From positions 1-64,000 of the IMG/VR virus record IMGVR_UViG_3300038499_000012: 64,000 bases of DNA; one strand, 5' to 3'. Shown here piece by piece: positions 56,180 through 63,476 of the stretch. The position numbers and the translations under genes were made by a program. The notes under the pieces were generated by a model. It worked only from the letters and a program-made list of their open reading frames with translations. It was not told the DNA's origin and did not search any database. The stretch is from a virus (Duplodnaviria; Heunggongvirae; Uroviricota; Caudoviricetes). Numbering within the stretch: the stretch's first letter is position 1; each line of letters opens with the position of its first letter.

Positions 56180-56385
56180 ACCTTTCTTGACTAGACTGCA
56201 ATGAAGAGTTTGAAATGGCAACATTTTCCCTTATTCTTCTCTGCGGAGTGTTGCTGCTTTTTAGAGCAATAAAACTATTCAATGACGTCAGAATATTTAT
56301 TGGCATGGTCACTCTTGTTGTAAGCTTATTTTGCTTCTGGTGTTGCTTATACCTTCTGACCCACTGATGCCCTAACGCAAAAAAT

Positions 56386-56412
56386 AAAGGGACCGATATT
56401 TCTACCGGTCCC
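56386..56412. terminator. bidirectional intrinsic terminator-like hairpin
   Basis: gggaccg-atatttcta-cggtccc stem-loop with T/A-rich flanks, between convergent gene sets. Confidence 0.35.
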
Positions 56413-56438
56413 TTCTCTTCGTTCTCAACCTCAATTCA

Positions 56439-56606
56439 TCAATTTTTACAAGGACGAGGACGACCCTTCGGCTTGATGATGAACTGCTCCCACATCTTCA
56501 CTACTACTTCAAAAATGAATAGATTGTGGGACCTGGCATATTCCTCAATCTGCTTATAGACCGACTGAGGAACGCCTATGGGTTGTTTAGGCTCAGCTCT
56601 TGGCAT
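56439..56606 (-). CDS. small ribbon-helix-helix-like protein (not in the ORF track, 55 aa)
   Basis: ATG 3 nt after the Ro60 stop, using caggagtaagt as RBS. MPRAEPKQPIGVPQSVYKQIEEYARS resembles Arc/CopG-type RHH. Confidence 0.25.
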   Translation of the reverse strand: MPRAEPKQPIGVPQSVYKQIEEYARSHNLFIFEVVVKMWEQFIIKPKGRPRPCKN

Positions 56607-56608
56607 AC

Positions 56609-58075
56609 TTACTCCTGTTCTGCCACAACCTGCCCGGTAGGAACGCCTTCTTCGAATATCCGGATGTAGTCCAGAACAGCCTCAGACCACCCATTGATAT
56701 GCACCCACTTCGTACCGTAAGCAACACCACAGTCGTAGGTGTTAACATTGACGATGTAGTTGTGCGTTCCAAAAGCATTGGCCTTGTCCGGCGATTGACG
56801 ACTTGAAATGTCACAATCCTGCTCATCGGTGAATACAATGATCCGATCAGCAGTCTTTTCCTTATCATGCACGAAATTCATCACCTGAGTGAGGAAGATA
56901 CCCCCACCACCCAGAGGACCCGTCAAAGCGTAGATGACATCAGACAGGGCAAACCCTCTACGAGACGGTACCAACTGAGTCTTGTGAATCCTCGTACTAT
57001 CACAGCCGGCAGTAGCATAGATAACCGGGTCTTCACAAAGCTCCCTGGCAATCATTGCCAATGCACAGCCAGCTCGAGCTCGGTCCATCTCGGACTTTTT
57101 GGATACCTGAGCGTGATACATGCTCCCCGATACATCGACGATAAGGATCGTCTTGCCATTGAGCTTAGGCTTACCCTCCATAGTCTTCATGAACGCCACT
57201 TCAAGATCCGGCTCGAACTTTGGAGCATGAATAGCCGCGGCAATGTAACGAAACGGCAGCACCTGGGTGCTCTTCATGTCCCGTACAGCCTGTGACACCA
57301 GCTTAGGAGTCACTTCAGCCTGAGTCATGTTACGAAGATTCCGAATCAATGCCAAATCACCCAGCTTCTTCTCCTTCAGAAGCCGTTCCCAAGAGTCCTT
57401 GTTGTTACCCTTGGCGGAAATCTCAACTTCCCAAGTATCAGGAGTCTTCAAGGTGCCGGTGATAAGCTTCTTGAATAGGTCGCTACCAGGATCCTGAGGA
57501 AGAGACGCACCTGCCTTTCTAGCTTTCCTGGTAAATCCTGCCACACCAGTCTTCGGCTTCGCATGACTCAGAAACAGGACATCACGAAGTTTGACATCCT
57601 TATCTTGATTGTACTTGGACAGGGCATATTCCGAGAACTTGTTGAATGCCGCAGCCAAGCCCTTTTTGACCTGAGAAGATACAGACTGGTTCTTATCATC
57701 AGACCAATAGATGGACATGAACTCAGAGAGCTCATCAGGACGCTGAATAACCTGTTCAAGCGTACGGGAAACAAGATGCTTATGGGTGGAAAGACGGGCC
57801 ATTTCCCGAACGAGAAGCAGAGGGACATGCCTCAACTTCATCAGAGTTCGGGCTTCAAGGGCGATTTCAGCGACCTTATTGGCCGGCAATTGAGGAATGA
57901 GATCCTTAATCCGTTGGGCAATAGAAACCCCGGACTCGTAGTGGGTATCTTCCCACAACAGACAGCTCATCACTGCCCTGCGAAGAAGTTCCTCGGCATT
58001 GGTGATCTTTTTGGTGATCGCACCCTCATGAGTGTGGGCAGGAGTCGGGGGAGTCTTTTTGTTGATCGATGCCAT
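56609..58075 (-). CDS. rsr: Ro60-like ribonucleoprotein (TROVE + vWA domains)
   Basis: DVLFLSHAKPKTG matches the Ro60 DLLRLSHxKP TROVE signature. vWA MIDAS ILIVDVSGSMYH. Start set at MASINKK (RBS aggaga) rather than track start 58138. Confidence 0.6.
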   Translation of the reverse strand: MASINKKTPPTPAHTHEGAITKKITNAEELLRRAVMSCLLWEDTHYESGVSIAQRIKDLIPQLPANKVAEIALEARTLMKLRHVPLLLVREMARLSTHKHLVSRTLEQVIQRPDELSEFMSIYWSDDKNQSVSSQVKKGLAAAFNKFSEYALSKYNQDKDVKLRDVLFLSHAKPKTGVAGFTRKARKAGASLPQDPGSDLFKKLITGTLKTPDTWEVEISAKGNNKDSWERLLKEKKLGDLALIRNLRNMTQAEVTPKLVSQAVRDMKSTQVLPFRYIAAAIHAPKFEPDLEVAFMKTMEGKPKLNGKTILIVDVSGSMYHAQVSKKSEMDRARAGCALAMIARELCEDPVIYATAGCDSTRIHKTQLVPSRRGFALSDVIYALTGPLGGGGIFLTQVMNFVHDKEKTADRIIVFTDEQDCDISSRQSPDKANAFGTHNYIVNVNTYDCGVAYGTKWVHINGWSEAVLDYIRIFEEGVPTGQVVAEQE

Positions 58076-58279
58076 TGGACACTCTCCTATGTTATTTAGG
58101 ATAGGATGGGGAACAAACGGGCAGGGGTCTTTCCACATTATCAGTATGAAGTATCCCTACTCCTACGCCACCACCCTAATACTCGACAGCCTCAAAAAAT
58201 AAAGGACAGGGAACAAACAACAAGAGTTTTTTTCGATGATTGAAGTAGCCCTTGTCAACGCCACTGTCCTATTTTATCT

Positions 58280-58440
58280 GGCGGGGAACAAACGAATCGG
58301 GGCTTTTTTTCTGTTGCTCTACCAACTGAGCTACCGCCCCGTAAATGTGGAGCGGGTAGGACTCGGACCTACGACCCACAGTTTGATATGAAGGATCCCA
58401 ACTCTACGCCACCGCCCGTAATGGTTTCAACCCACGCATC
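58280..58440 (-). ncRNA. candidate Y RNA-like ncRNA with permuted tRNA-like module (T-arm, closed acceptor hairpin, D-arm)
   Basis: On the minus strand: T-arm-like gtagg-TCCGAGT-cctac, then ccgctcc-A-catttac-ggggcgg (a 7-bp acceptor-like hairpin closed by a loop), then TA-gctc-AGTTGGTAG-gagc, a canonical D-arm (~58313-58376). Lies ~180 nt upstream of rsr on the same strand. Confidence 0.4.
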
Positions 58441-58614
58441 AATACAGGATGCGACACAAATTAAAGGATCTCAGGAACAGACGAACCAGGACTGCCCTTT
58501 CGGGCGTTCCATGTAATGAAGTATCCCGATTCTAACGCCATGAGATCCATTTCCGAAGTGCACCTTAAATATACGACCACAAAATTGAAAAGTCAAATAT
58601 TTTTTAATTTATTT

Positions 58615-58800
58615 TTAGAGGCCCCATCTAGAGGCTGCGTCCTCAAGCCCTTTCTCGGCCGGTTCCACAGGCTGAGTATATTTACACTTAGGAAAATTTG
58701 TACACCCAAGAAAATACTCTTTGGTAAGTTTATTCTGCCTCTTGACTAGCTTACCATCACACCTGGCGCAGTCCCATATGGTGATGTCTTCGTCCTGCAC
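58615..58800 (-). CDS. topoisomerase-type C4 zinc-ribbon protein
   Basis: CARCDGKLVKR...FLGCTNFPKCKYT (zf-C4_Topoisom-like). Confidence 0.45.
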   Translation of the reverse strand: MQDEDITIWDCARCDGKLVKRQNKLTKEYFLGCTNFPKCKYTQPVEPAEKGLEDAASRWGL

Positions 58801-58803
58801 GCT

Positions 58804-59523
58804 CTACCACCAATTTTTGAGGTATAGATACAAAGCGGTTTCAGACGTTTTCACGAATGAAAACTGGTCAAGCTTATCCGACAAAAACAGATAGAACTCT
58901 TTATCATGATCCCGGTATTTTGACCAATCAAAACCCATAGCCATAACCTTATCCATAAATATCCGTGACAACAACATGGACCCACTTCCCACAGTCCCTT
59001 TCTTAAAATCGCAGTTGGTCATAACACTACCCAATCTGTTTTCATGAATCATTAAAAGCGGACACAATACCCCATCAATTCCGTCTTTCAAATAACGTGT
59101 CATAACTTTCAGACAATCCGGCATGAGTACGTCATCCGAATCAAACATTTTCACATACTCAGACTTACCCTTCCACTCAAAAATCCATTGCCGAGCGTTA
59201 CCCGCATGCCCCGTATAAGCACCCAGATGTCTGACCAGCACACCCTTCTTACAATACTCTACAGAGGCTTTAGGCCCATATTCGGAAGGAATCCTGCTAT
59301 CCTCAGGCGTATACCAATACTTCTCTATCATAGACTCGAGCTGTAAATGATTATCCTCTACCCAAAGTACGATTCTTTTGGGCTCATAAGTCTGATAGAA
59401 AGCACAACACAGGGCAATCTGCAGGCGCATGAAATGATTAGATACAGTAGGAACAAATAGATCAATCAATGGGTTTTCTGACATAAATACCATAGTTGAA
59501 GGTGGAGCTGTGATAAGAAACAA
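58804..59523 (-). CDS. putative glycosyltransferase (GT-A-like)
   Basis: DSDD (DxD-like) motif; weak. Confidence 0.25.
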   Translation of the reverse strand: MFLITAPPSTMVFMSENPLIDLFVPTVSNHFMRLQIALCCAFYQTYEPKRIVLWVEDNHLQLESMIEKYWYTPEDSRIPSEYGPKASVEYCKKGVLVRHLGAYTGHAGNARQWIFEWKGKSEYVKMFDSDDVLMPDCLKVMTRYLKDGIDGVLCPLLMIHENRLGSVMTNCDFKKGTVGSGSMLLSRIFMDKVMAMGFDWSKYRDHDKEFYLFLSDKLDQFSFVKTSETALYLYLKNWW

Positions 59524-62555: not shown

Positions 62556-63431
62556 ATGCCAAAATACATAAAAGTACGGTGTTCTTTGTGTAAGTTACCC
62601 TTTGAGAAATCTTCACAAAGATATAATGAAGCAATAAAAAAGGGTTCTAAACTATTTTGTTCCTCCAAATGTCGTATAACTGACAGGACTACCTCTAAGG
62701 ATCTGACTTGTGACCTGTGCGGTAAAAAGTTCGTAAGGCAGAAGTACGCTATTAGGGATGGTCATAACTTTTGTAGTCAGTCCTGCTCTGCTCGGTATAC
62801 AAATAAAGGCAGGGCCATGAAAGAGTCTACCAAAATTAAAATATCCTCTAGACTATCTGGTGTTAAAAGAACGGAAGAGCAGAAAAAACAGACTCAACAA
62901 AGAATAATGCTGTCTGGCCACTTTTCAGGAAAATTGTTCACAGGGATACGTATCTCAAATTGTGTTGTTTGTGGTAAACTCTTTTGTTCTCGTGCTGCTG
63001 AAAAGAGAAAGACATGTTCTAAAGATTGTAAAACGATATCAAGCACTAAACTGAGGACATATCAGAATGGTTCTAGAAAGGCTGTTTGGTTTTTTAATCC
63101 ATTTCAAAATAAAAAAGTTTTATTGGAGTCCTCTTGGGAGGTTAAAACAGCAGAAATGCTCTGTGCTTATAATATAGAATGGACTCGACCTGAACCAATG
63201 AGTTGGATAGATATTAACAACAAGAGGCATCTGTATTTTCCTGACTTTTATCTACCAAAGTATGATACATATTTAGACCCCAAAAATCCTTTTTGTATGA
63301 ATAGAGACAAAGAAAAACTCGCCTATTTTAAAAACAGAATAAATTTGATTTATGGTGATATGACGATAATCAATCAGTATATAGAGAATATAACTCGGAG
63401 TGACAGGACTCGAACCTGCATTTCCCGTTAG
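62556..63431 (+). CDS. Cys-rich zinc-ribbon repeat protein with possible PD-(D/E)xK nuclease C-terminus
   Basis: Repeated CxxC...CxxC pairs. C-terminal YFPDFYLP...YLDPK resembles a PD...(D/E)xK core. The 3' end overlaps the tRNA on the opposite strand. Confidence 0.3.
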   Translation: MPKYIKVRCSLCKLPFEKSSQRYNEAIKKGSKLFCSSKCRITDRTTSKDLTCDLCGKKFVRQKYAIRDGHNFCSQSCSARYTNKGRAMKESTKIKISSRLSGVKRTEEQKKQTQQRIMLSGHFSGKLFTGIRISNCVVCGKLFCSRAAEKRKTCSKDCKTISSTKLRTYQNGSRKAVWFFNPFQNKKVLLESSWEVKTAEMLCAYNIEWTRPEPMSWIDINNKRHLYFPDFYLPKYDTYLDPKNPFCMNRDKEKLAYFKNRINLIYGDMTIINQYIENITRSDRTRTCISR

Positions 63432-63476
63432 GGACCTGAACCCAAATCAGGTGGGTAGCCATTACCCTACACTCCG
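63395..63476 (-). tRNA. tRNA (type II-like long variable arm; isotype uncertain, anticodon loop TTTGGGT)
   Basis: Cloverleaf: acceptor CGGAGTG/CACTCCG, D-arm GGGT-AATGGCT-ACCC, anticodon stem CCTGA/TCAGG, variable hairpin TCCC-TAAC-GGGA, T-arm GCAGG-TTCGAGT-CCTGT, discriminator A, no encoded CCA. Confidence 0.55.

What the first reader, a model, noticed from the sequence alone, without database searches (positions are those of the whole stretch)
58100..58560. Candidate Y RNA: permuted tRNA-like module and repeated motifs upstream of a Ro60 (TROVE-vWA) gene
About 180 nt upstream of rsr on the same strand is a sequence matching tRNA T-arm, acceptor and D-arm elements in circularly permuted order. 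The order is T-arm, acceptor 3' strand, 8-nt loop, acceptor 5' strand (7 bp including a G-U), then a canonical D-arm GCTC-AGTTGGTAG-GAGC, with no anticodon arm. Bacterial Y RNAs (YrlA type) that tether Ro60 have this architecture, with the Ro-binding stem replacing the anticodon stem, and are encoded next to rsr. Three copies of a ~27-nt motif lie at ~58145-58175, ~58386-58415 and ~58515-58544. Three GGGGAACAAAC(n)GGGG elements lie between them. These are consistent with tandem modules or processing sites. A phage-encoded Ro60/Y RNA RNP could influence RNA decay or tRNA surveillance during infection.
Basis: partly seen in the sequence, partly recalled or inferred. Interest (0 to 1): 0.7.

Follow-up and report, generated by a model that had tools for sequence, protein, structure and literature searches.

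The report
Four tandem phage Y RNAs
The stretch upstream of this phage's Ro60 gene encodes four small Y RNAs in a row, one with a rearranged tRNA-like domain; this RNA-protein partnership is already known in bacteria and some phages, so it is a good new example, not a new kind of system.

Summary
On the minus strand, between a sigma-70-like promoter (58596-58568) and the Ro60/TROVE-vWA gene (58075-56609), lie four tandem Y RNA modules, not one.

They are M1 58549-58465, M2 58420-58276, M3 58272-58201 and M4 58179-58101. Each has the same layout:
- a closing stem, a bulged U and a GG/CC pair;
- a conserved internal loop (5' YGWW, 3' NYUUGUU);
- a second stem, then UACUUC.

There are four copies of each, not three.

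M2 alone carries the T arm, 7-bp acceptor hairpin and D arm of the YrlA type. Its Rfam YrlA score is 38.1 bits, E 1.3e-6, below the gathering score of 69.

A covariance model built only from other loci finds exactly these four sites in the 64 kb (E 8e-15 to 3e-8). It also finds 175 sites next to Ro60 genes elsewhere, all on the gene's strand. Compensatory changes support the stems.

Phage Ro60 with upstream Y RNAs is published (mycobacteriophages, CcrColossus, Thermus phage phiLo). Verdict: new member of a known kind, moderate interest.

The parts
58568..58596 (-). Sigma-70-like promoter TTGACT-17 nt-TATATT, about 20 nt upstream of the first module
   Evidence: Best promoter-like site in 56300-59000, 10 of 12 matches. 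The same TTGAYT-17-TATATT sits just before the first module in relatives L008 and L010, read from the sequences printed. This is a consensus match only; no transcript data.
58465..58549 (-). Y RNA module M1 (85 nt, short type). Closing stem GGAUCUCA/UGAGAUCC, bulged U, GG/CC, second stem, then an apical pair of hairpins including CGCCCGAAAGGGC.
   Evidence: R1 covariance model 42.5 bits, E 1.6e-8. Folds at -35.5 kcal/mol, z -4.1. The apical GCCC-GAAA-GGGC hairpin is conserved in modules of L007, L025 and L089.
58276..58420 (-). Y RNA module M2 (145 nt, YrlA type). Closing stem GGCGG/CCGCC, bulged U, GG/CC, GGCGUAG motif, second stem GAGUUGGG/CCCGAUUC, and a large internal loop (UCCUUCAUAUCAAA / AAAAAAAG) that encloses the tRNA-like domain.
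   Evidence: R1 41.6 bits, E 2.6e-8 with default filters. With filters off it splits into two weak halves because of the 80-nt insert. RNAalifold on 16 YrlA-type modules including this one recovers all stems.
58311..58381 (-). tRNA-like domain of M2. In order: 4-bp CUGU/ACAG stem (anticodon-stem equivalent), variable loop GGGUC, T arm, 7-bp acceptor hairpin with 8-nt loop, UA, D arm.
   Evidence: Rfam YrlA RF02553 38.1 bits, E 1.3e-6, model positions 23-87. No tRNA called. 87% identical over 70 nt to an unannotated element of Klebsiella phage KP13-26.
58201..58272 (-). Y RNA module M3 (72 nt, short type). Closing stem AGGACAG/CUGUCCU, second stem UGACAAGGG/CUCUUGUUG, A-rich apical loop, followed by UUUAUUUUUU.
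   Evidence: R1 67.2 bits, E 8.3e-15. MFE fold shows the same stems.
58101..58179 (-). Y RNA module M4 (79 nt, short type). Closing stem UAGGGUGG/CCAUCCUA. It ends 26 nt before the rsr start codon.
   Evidence: R1 54.6 bits, E 1.3e-11. The apical sequence ACUG.UAAUGU.GGAAAG is shared with a module in L013.
56609..58075 (-). rsr: Ro60 orthologue, 488 aa, TROVE + vWA with MIDAS motif DVSGS; RBS AGGAGAG at 58088-58082
   Evidence: Pfam TROVE E 1.7e-15 and a weak vWA_Ro60 match. Best solved relative is Thermus phage phiLo Ro60, 9L5Y/9KOP, E 5.5e-26 over residues 11-477. 7966 homologues at E <= 1e-20. The same 488-aa gene is recorded on the source contig.
56439..56606 (-). Conserved 55-aa ORF immediately after rsr, probably in the same operon
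   Evidence: Homologues at 38-53% identity sit directly after rsr in L007, L008 and L010, and one gene further downstream in L011. L012 has one too (read). No Pfam match.
56386..56415 (-). Intrinsic-terminator-like hairpin (13-bp stem plus U run) that would close the operon
   Evidence: Terminator scan.

Best explanation
The 58600-58100 minus-strand region is a polycistronic Y RNA array at the head of a phage rsr operon. The order is promoter, M1, M2 (YrlA type), M3, M4, rsr, a 55-aa ORF, then a terminator.

Each module folds into the Y RNA layout: a closing stem made by its own 5' and 3' ends, then a bulged U and two G-C pairs. Next comes a conserved asymmetric internal loop (5' YGWW, a variant of the published GNCGAAN0-1G Rsr-binding motif; 3' NYUUGUU). 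A second stem follows, and then a variable apical part that begins with UACUUC.

The conserved helix and loop are the docking site for the phage Ro60 ring. The apical parts act as adaptors: a permuted tRNA-like domain in M2, a GAAA-capped hairpin in M1, and A-rich loops in M3 and M4.

By analogy with D. radiodurans, S. Typhimurium and Thermus phage phiLo, the adaptors would tether Ro60 to host enzymes such as PNPase, or gate its cavity. This would redirect decay of structured RNA during infection. M2's 7-bp acceptor hairpin also makes it a candidate RNase P / CCA-adding substrate, as shown for M. smegmatis YrlA.

Shown here: sequence, structure, covariation, synteny and strand bias. Inferred: transcription, processing into separate RNAs, Ro60 binding, and the effector and its role in infection.
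For: 1. Independent model. R1 was built from 34 modules of other loci only. It finds exactly four hits in 64 kb, both strands searched, all contiguous on the rsr strand, E 8.3e-15 to 2.6e-8.

2. Association with Ro60 genes. R1 finds 175 hits in 86 Ro60 loci, every one on the Ro60 strand and nearly all upstream of the gene. Modules per locus: 14 loci with 1, 18 with 2, 25 with 3, 5 with 4 and 6 with 5.

3. Covariation on 92 modules.
- 87.3% of cells are paired, against 58.1% in shuffles.
- Covariation score 0.787 against 0.225, reached by 0 of 500 shuffles; slid registers give at most 0.197.
- All 9 pairs of the second stem, which was not used to select the modules, show changes on both sides.
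- The first G of GG pairs with the last C of CC as GC in 83 modules and AU in 9, with none unpaired.

4. RNAalifold on 16 YrlA-type modules including M2 recovers the closing stem, GG/CC, the second stem, the T arm and the acceptor stem. 20 of 25 pairs carry compensatory changes.

5. Rfam YrlA partial match, E 1.3e-6.

6. The adjacent gene is a full-length Ro60.

7. R1 also hits CcrColossus, a phage cited as having Y RNA-like ncRNAs (PMC12135203, which cites PMC4201824).

8. Published precedent.
- YrlA occurs near and on the same strand as rsr in 254 bacteria and 22 phages, and the GNCGAAN0-1G and YUAY motifs were defined there (PMC4201824).
- M. smegmatis YrlA and YrlB are processed from one precursor upstream of rsr (PMC4201824).
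- phiLo Ro60 binds two upstream Yrl RNAs and host PNPase (PMC12135203).
Against: - There is no expression data. The contig is an uncultured metagenome assembly (ENA ERZ1744398 NODE_3).
- The Rfam YrlA score of 38.1 is below the gathering score of 69, and only the tRNA-like core aligns.
- The 5' motif is GGCGUAG or GGCGUUAG, not the literal GNCGAA.
- M2's T loop is UCCGAGU, with C at the position of psi55.
- Single-sequence folding z-scores for M2, M3 and M4 are modest: -1.6, -2.3 and -1.7.
- M2's R1 hit relies on local-end treatment of the 80-nt insert and falls apart with filters off.
- Selection of modules for the covariation count required at least 5 closing-stem pairs, so closing-stem pairing is partly built in.
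- No terminator or processing signal between modules was demonstrated.
- The PNPase-tether role is purely by analogy.
Confidence: 0.85

Rival explanations
1. The four modules are not independent stable ncRNAs. They are a structured 5' leader of the rsr mRNA: Ro60-binding sites through which the protein autoregulates its own message by translation or stability feedback.
For: One promoter-like site lies upstream of M1, and no canonical terminator was predicted between M1 and rsr. M4 ends only 26 nt before the start codon. All modules are co-oriented with rsr.
Against: In several relatives the same modules lie downstream of rsr: L021 3101, L062 2504, L084 2983 and 3143, L095 3936 and 4119. A leader cannot explain those. 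In every organism tested experimentally, the upstream modules are processed into stable Ro60-bound RNAs (PMC4201824). M3 is followed by a U run that could end a transcript. The two readings are not exclusive.
Confidence: 0.08
2. The tRNA-like element is a decayed or rearranged tRNA pseudogene, and the repeats around it are unrelated.
For: It has tRNA-type T and D arms. It gives weak hits to tmRNA models. ARAGORN calls no tRNA there.
Against: The same permuted T-acceptor-D order recurs with compensatory changes in 15 other Ro60 loci. The element is embedded precisely between the two strands of a conserved, covarying Ro60-binding helix. It is 87% conserved in an unrelated Klebsiella phage.
Confidence: 0.02
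3. The repeats act at the DNA level, as operators or iterons for a regulator such as the neighbouring 55-aa protein, and not as RNA.
For: There are four direct repeats of two motifs in an intergenic region next to a promoter. A small conserved ORF of unknown function is linked to the locus.
Against: The variable segments between the conserved motifs change in a base-pair-preserving way, including G-U pairs: 571 cells changed on both sides against 198 in shuffles. That is selection on RNA, not on DNA. All 175 hits in other loci are strand-specific.
Confidence: 0.02

Closest known systems
YrlA (Y RNA-like A; Rfam RF02553; Chen et al. 2014, PMC4201824)
   Same: M2 is encoded just upstream of rsr on the same strand. 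Its 5' and 3' ends form a long stem with a conserved 5' motif. It has a T arm, acceptor-like hairpin and D arm in the permuted order, with the Ro-binding stem in place of the anticodon arm. G15/C48, U8/A14, G19/C56 and U54/A58 partners are present. The 7-bp acceptor stem matches M. smegmatis YrlA, which is cleaved by RNase P.
   Different: It scores 38.1 bits against the gathering score of 69, and the Rfam model's stem regions do not align. The motif is GGCGUAG rather than GNCGAA. UCCUUC replaces the usual YUAC-UUC. The T loop has C at position 55. It is one of four modules in a phage array.
YrlB / Yrn2-type short bacterial Y RNAs (PMC4201824)
   Same: M1, M3 and M4 are 72-85-nt stem / internal-loop / stem hairpins that carry the Rsr-binding motif. 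They lie between YrlA and rsr or beside it, apparently from the same precursor, as in M. smegmatis.
   Different: There are three of them, each with its own apical sequence that is conserved in other loci. No sequence similarity to Salmonella YrlB was tested.
Thermus phage phiLo Ro60 with Yrl1/Yrl2 (PMC12135203; PDB 9KOP, 9L5Y)
   Same: A phage-encoded Ro60 with Y RNA-like genes directly upstream. It is the closest solved structure to the window protein (E 5.5e-26). Its stem-bulge-stem RNAs carry a CGAA-type motif.
   Different: phiLo has two modules and no tRNA-like domain is reported (the term does not occur in the paper). The window has four, including a YrlA type. The proteins are only distantly related. 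PNPase binding is shown for phiLo and untested here.
Metazoan Y RNAs
   Same: They share the overall logic: the 5' and 3' ends pair, a bulged conserved helix binds Ro60, a variable loop recruits partners, and there are several paralogous Y RNAs per genome.
   Different: No sequence homology. Metazoan Y RNAs are Pol III transcripts from separate genes, whereas these form a tandem array co-transcribed with rsr. Metazoan Y RNAs have no tRNA-like domain.

Membership tests
YrlA-type bacterial/phage Y RNA (Chen et al. 2014 criteria) | Encoded within about 2 kb of a Ro60 orthologue on the same strand | tested here: met
   M2 lies at 58420-58276 and rsr at 58075-56609, both on the minus strand.
YrlA-type bacterial/phage Y RNA (Chen et al. 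2014 criteria) | tRNA-like domain: T stem-loop, acceptor-like stem-loop and D stem-loop in that order | tested here: met
   Direct reading of 58381-58311. Rfam YrlA alignment of model positions 23-87. Consensus fold with 15 relatives.
YrlA-type bacterial/phage Y RNA (Chen et al. 2014 criteria) | GNCGAAN0-1G motif near the 5' end | tested here: inconclusive
   The window has GGCGUAG (M2), GGCGUAGG (M4), GGCGUUAG (M1) and GGCGUUG (M3), so the literal AA is not present. In 92 aligned modules from Ro60 loci the same two columns alternate between AA, UA, UU and CA. This is a common variant of the motif.
YrlA-type bacterial/phage Y RNA (Chen et al. 2014 criteria) | 5' and 3' ends pair to form a long stem interrupted by an internal loop | tested here: met
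   MFE folds, covariation count, R1 alignments.
YrlA-type bacterial/phage Y RNA (Chen et al. 2014 criteria) | Stable RNA bound and stabilised by Rsr; tRNA-type modifications; RNase P / CCA processing | not testable with these tools
   Needs RNA and protein experiments.
Rfam RF02553 (YrlA) as curated | Bit score at or above the gathering score of 69 | tested here: not met
   38.1 bits. Twelve YrlA hits in relatives were also all below 69, best 61.1. The curated model appears too narrow for this clade, so I do not file M2 under RF02553 as such.
Short Y RNA (YrlB / Yrn2 / phiLo Yrl type) for M1, M3 and M4 | Stem-bulge-stem hairpin with the Ro60-binding motif, next to rsr | tested here: met
   R1 hits at 42.5, 67.2 and 54.6 bits; folds.
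Canonical tRNA gene or pseudogene | Cloverleaf order acceptor-D-anticodon-T with an anticodon arm | tested here: not met
   ARAGORN and the Rfam tRNA model find nothing at 58276-58420. The order is T-acceptor-D and there is no anticodon arm.
Ro60 / TROVE protein (partner gene) | TROVE (HEAT-repeat ring) domain followed by a vWA domain with a MIDAS DxSxS motif | tested here: met
   Pfam TROVE E 1.7e-15. vWA_Ro60 scores 22.3 bits, below its cut-off of 27.7. D314, S316 and S318 are invariant in 26 homologues. End-to-end alignment to phiLo Ro60.

The most novel reading that the evidence does not exclude
The four modules are not redundant copies. They would be a set of distinct adaptors, each with its own apical element conserved independently in distant phage or bacterial Ro60 loci: M1's GCCC-GAAA-GGGC hairpin in L007, L025 and L089; M4's loop in L013; M2's tRNA-like domain. 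One phage Ro60 ring could then be directed to several host partners.

The tRNA-like domain in particular could be a decoy or substrate for tRNA-processing enzymes or tRNA-targeting defence enzymes. One observation hints at this. The closest relatives (L007, L011, L012) carry the same domain in un-permuted tRNA order, with free acceptor ends and the Ro-binding helix capped in the anticodon position.
Probability: 0.15. Interest if true: 0.65.

Novelty: new member of a known kind. Interest (0 to 1): 0.35.

Why it matters
It adds a clean, well-delimited example of a phage rsr operon with a four-member Y RNA array and exact module boundaries. It also yields a covariance model (R1) for the Ro60-binding core. 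R1 detects Y RNAs that the curated Rfam YrlA model misses, including unannotated ones in CcrColossus, a Xanthomonas phage and a crAss-like phage.

The conserved 3' strand (YUUGUUCC), the bulged U and the covarying G-C/A-U pair give concrete targets for mutagenesis of the Ro60-Y RNA interface.

What phage Ro60 does is still open. Published proposals are PNPase hijacking (phiLo) and a role as a counter to the ppl defence system (Bas63 gp130). Arrays like this one offer several natural adaptor variants with which to test those ideas.

None of this changes the current picture of Y RNAs. It extends it.

Tried and rejected
- Rfam at gathering threshold over the whole window found only tRNA-Pro. The YrlA signal appears only in an E-value search of the region.
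- A megablast of the locus against 50,697 phage records found only a 70-nt match to Klebsiella phage KP13-26. The protein upstream of that match is not a clear Ro60 (BLASTP E 0.054) but a DUF2828/DUF7788 vWA protein. R1 finds no module there, so it gave no comparative help for the flanks.
- IMG/VR gave only four distant loci, at most 46% identity.
- Comparative power came from exact-protein look-ups and one metagenome scan.
- I considered pairing of the loop bases Y-G with the G of UUGUUCC. Column 54 A variants occur together with C at column 14 (for example L010_777), so I did not include that pair.
- R1 with filters off splits M2 into two halves of about 11 bits each. I rely on the default-filter hit plus direct reading and for M2.
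- A regex search of the window for a tRNA-order (un-permuted) Y RNA, as seen in relatives, found none.
- The Annual Review on bacterial Ro60 (PMC10870794) is not held. So I could not check whether arrays of four or five modules, or the 3' motif, are already described there.
- Single-sequence folding z-scores are weak for M2-M4 and were not used as the main evidence.

Full report
**Observation**

- T arm: GUAGG-UCCGAGU-CCUAC (58372-58356).
- Acceptor 3' strand: CCGCUCC.
- 8-nt loop: ACAUUUAC.
- Acceptor 5' strand: GGGGCGG, giving 7 bp with one U-G.
- UA, then the D arm GCUC-AGUUGGUA-GAGC (58331-58316).
- There is no anticodon arm.

ARAGORN and Rfam at gathering threshold see no tRNA there. An E-value search gives a partial YrlA (RF02553) match at 58380-58310. 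It scores 38.1 bits, E 1.3e-6, over model positions 23-87 of 114, below the gathering score of 69.

The repeat families are real, but each has four copies, not three.

The neighbouring ORF is a Ro60 orthologue. It has a Pfam TROVE match at E 1.7e-15 and a weak vWA_Ro60 match. It aligns end to end with the solved Thermus phage phiLo Ro60. Its likely start is ATG 58075, behind the RBS AGGAGAG; the 488-aa gene recorded for the source contig starts there too.

**Origin and context**

The window is part of a 79.9-kb metagenome contig, ENA ERZ1744398 NODE_3. It carries collagen-like tail-fibre proteins, an RIIA homologue and helicases, so it is phage-like.

No sequenced phage is close at the DNA level. 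Ro60 homologues occur in 91 phage records, all below 60% identity. Metagenomic homologues reach 70%.

**Anatomy**

Each module has this layout:
- a closing stem of 5-8 bp in the window (up to 10 in relatives), formed by its own 5' and 3' ends;
- a bulged U;
- two pairs, GG with CC;
- an asymmetric internal loop, 5' YGWW(N) and 3' NYUUGUU;
- a second stem of about 9 bp;
- then (U/A)UACUUC and a variable apical part, often closed on the 3' side by an A-rich run.

The window has four such modules: M1 58549-58465, M2 58420-58276, M3 58272-58201 and M4 58179-58101. Only M2 carries the tRNA-like domain (58381-58311). That domain is joined through a 4-bp CUGU/ACAG stem, and large unpaired strands separate this stem from the second stem (UCCUUCAUAUCAAA on the 5' side, AAAAAAAG on the 3' side).

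MFE folding of each module, and of the whole 488-nt leader, reproduces the four units.

**Is it more than chance?**

I built a covariance model, R1, from 34 short modules taken only from other loci. On the whole 64-kb window, both strands, it returns exactly four hits, the four modules. Scores are 67.2, 54.6, 42.5 and 41.6 bits, with E from 8.3e-15 to 2.6e-8.

On 86 other loci (85 Ro60 loci plus the KP13-26 locus L001, which gave no hit) it returns 175 hits. Every hit is on the Ro60 strand and nearly all are upstream of the gene. Sixty-eight loci have at least one hit: 14 have one, 18 two, 25 three, 5 four and 6 five. These are lower bounds, because the flanks were cut.

On an alignment of 92 modules, the proposed structure is well supported.
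- 87.3% of cells are paired, against 58.1% in shuffles.
- The covariation score is 0.787 against 0.225, reached by 0 of 500 shuffles; slid registers reach at most 0.197.
- The second stem was not used to select the modules, and all nine of its pairs show changes on both sides.
- The first G of GG pairs with the last C of CC as G-C 83 times and A-U 9 times, and is never unpaired.

Closing-stem pairing was partly built in, because I required at least 5 closing-stem pairs when selecting modules.

RNAalifold on 16 YrlA-type modules, including M2, independently recovers the closing stem, GG/CC, the second stem, the T arm and the acceptor stem. Twenty of 25 pairs carry compensatory changes.

**Transcription unit**

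The best promoter-like site in the region is TTGACT-17-TATATT (58596-58568). The same TTGAYT-17-TATATT lies just upstream of the first module in L008 and L010 (sequences).

No canonical terminator was found between M1 and rsr. M3 is followed by UUUAUUUUUU.

A conserved 55-aa ORF follows rsr directly, here and in L007, L008, L010 and L012, and one gene further downstream in L011. It is followed by a strong terminator-like hairpin at 56415-56386.

The likely unit is therefore promoter, M1-M4, rsr, the 55-aa ORF, terminator. All of this is inferred from sequence.

**Mechanism**

The layout is that of bacterial Y RNAs.

Chen et al. 2014 (PMC4201824) defined YrlA by several features:
- proximity to rsr on the same strand;
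- a 5' GNCGAAN0-1G motif thought to contact Rsr;
- a conserved YUAY;
- the T / acceptor-like / D domain.

They found YrlA in 254 bacteria and 22 phages. They showed that M. smegmatis YrlA and YrlB are cut from one precursor upstream of rsr. [quoted passage not shown]

The window's GGCGUAG and GGCGUUAG are variants of that motif. In the 92-module alignment these columns alternate between AA, UA, UU and CA. UACUUC contains the YUAY.

For Thermus phage phiLo, Ro60 binds two upstream Yrl RNAs and forms a ternary complex with host PNPase (PMC12135203).

I therefore take the conserved helix and loop as the Ro60 docking site and the apical parts as adaptors. I put about 0.85 on 'four Ro60-binding Y RNAs'. 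I put much less, about 0.4, on PNPase being the effector.

A preprint reports that a Ro60-like protein of phage Bas63 counters the ppl defence system (PMC11482910). A counter-defence role is therefore also plausible.

**Rivals**

Three alternatives were considered.
- A pure rsr leader with autoregulatory Ro60 sites is possible as an added function. It cannot explain modules that lie downstream of rsr in L021, L062, L084 and L095.
- A decayed tRNA pseudogene is contradicted by the recurrence of the permuted order with compensatory changes.
- DNA-level repeats are contradicted by strand-specific covariation that tolerates G-U pairs.

**Comparison and novelty**

This works like, and by architecture belongs to, the bacterial/phage Y RNA class: YrlA type for M2, and short YrlB/Yrl type for M1, M3 and M4.

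It does not reach Rfam's YrlA gathering score. Neither did any of 12 YrlA hits in relatives (best 61.1 bits). The curated model is therefore narrow, and this does not make the RNA foreign to the class.

R1 also finds unannotated modules in CcrColossus (three), Xanthomonas phage MET23-P3 (two) and the crAss-like phage cr112_1 (two).

Four modules is at the high end of what the relatives show, but it is not exceptional.

The apical parts of M1 and M4 are each conserved in other loci. This suggests distinct, maintained subtypes.

This is a new member of a known kind, of moderate interest.

**Limits**

- There are no expression or binding data.
- The covariation controls do not fully account for phylogeny.
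- M2's model hit depends on how the 80-nt insert is treated.
- The main review of the field was not available.

Noticed in passing
L007 4161-4296; L011 2049-2183; L012 about 1749-1880 (relatives with 70%, 62% and 63% Ro60 identity): The same tRNA-like domain occurs in un-permuted tRNA order. The order is acceptor 5' strand, D arm, then the Ro-binding module inverted (3' motif, short capped stem, 5' motif), T arm, acceptor 3' strand. The Rfam tRNA model hits the L007 and L011 elements as about 135-nt 'tRNAs' (50-51 bits). This is a circular permutation of the YrlA layout found in the window. In L007 and L012 the element lies downstream of rsr and the small ORF. I did not find this described in the papers I could read.
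   Followed up: partly
L003 2785-2900: A third topology: D arm, anticodon-like hairpin and T arm, enclosed by the Ro-binding helix at the acceptor position. This resembles the arrangement described for D. radiodurans Yrn1. The Rfam tRNA model matches positions 5-66 at 43 bits.
   Followed up: no
L001 3990-4237 (Klebsiella phage KP13-26, OP617743.1, about 71971-72218): There are two unannotated YrlA-like tRNA-like modules (40.1 and 32.5 bits, both below the gathering score). They lie directly downstream of a 476-aa DUF2828/DUF7788 vWA protein, at the head of the phage's tRNA cluster. They lack the R1-type Ro-binding helix. The first is 87% identical to the window's tRNA-like domain. This fits the speculation about Bas63 gp130, a Ro60-like counter to the ppl defence (PMC11482910). 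It may be a parallel RNP built on a different protein family.
   Followed up: partly
window 56439-56606 (-): A 55-aa ORF (MPR..EPKQPIGVPQSVYKQIEEYA..LFIFEVVVKMWEQF) follows rsr immediately. It is conserved at 38-53% identity directly after rsr in L007, L008, L010 and L012, and one gene further downstream in L011. It has no Pfam match. Its pattern looks like a small ribbon-helix-helix protein, but that is my impression and was not tested.
   Followed up: partly
window 63395-63476 (-): A tRNA-Pro (UGG) carries a 12-nt insertion in the variable region (54.3 bits). It overlaps the 3' end of the plus-strand ORF 62556-63431.
   Followed up: no
window 58189-58203 and 58608-58622: A 15-nt inverted repeat, 93% complementary, lies 404 nt apart. 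One arm is at the U run after M3 and the other just upstream of the promoter. It is A/T-rich and may be chance.
   Followed up: no
L022 2919-3123 and 817-899: Next to a Ro60 gene with five Y RNA modules there is a sub-threshold archaeal RNase P RNA match (42.5 bits against 84) just downstream of rsr. There is also a tRNA-Sec-like match (43.5 bits against 47) upstream.
   Followed up: no
L092 759-1958; L094 1477-1922; L095 3936-4199: R1 modules are present but not annotated in the public records of Caulobacter phage CcrColossus (3), Xanthomonas phage MET23-P3 (2) and crAss-like phage cr112_1 (2). In cr112_1 they lie downstream of rsr and an HNH gene.
   Followed up: partly
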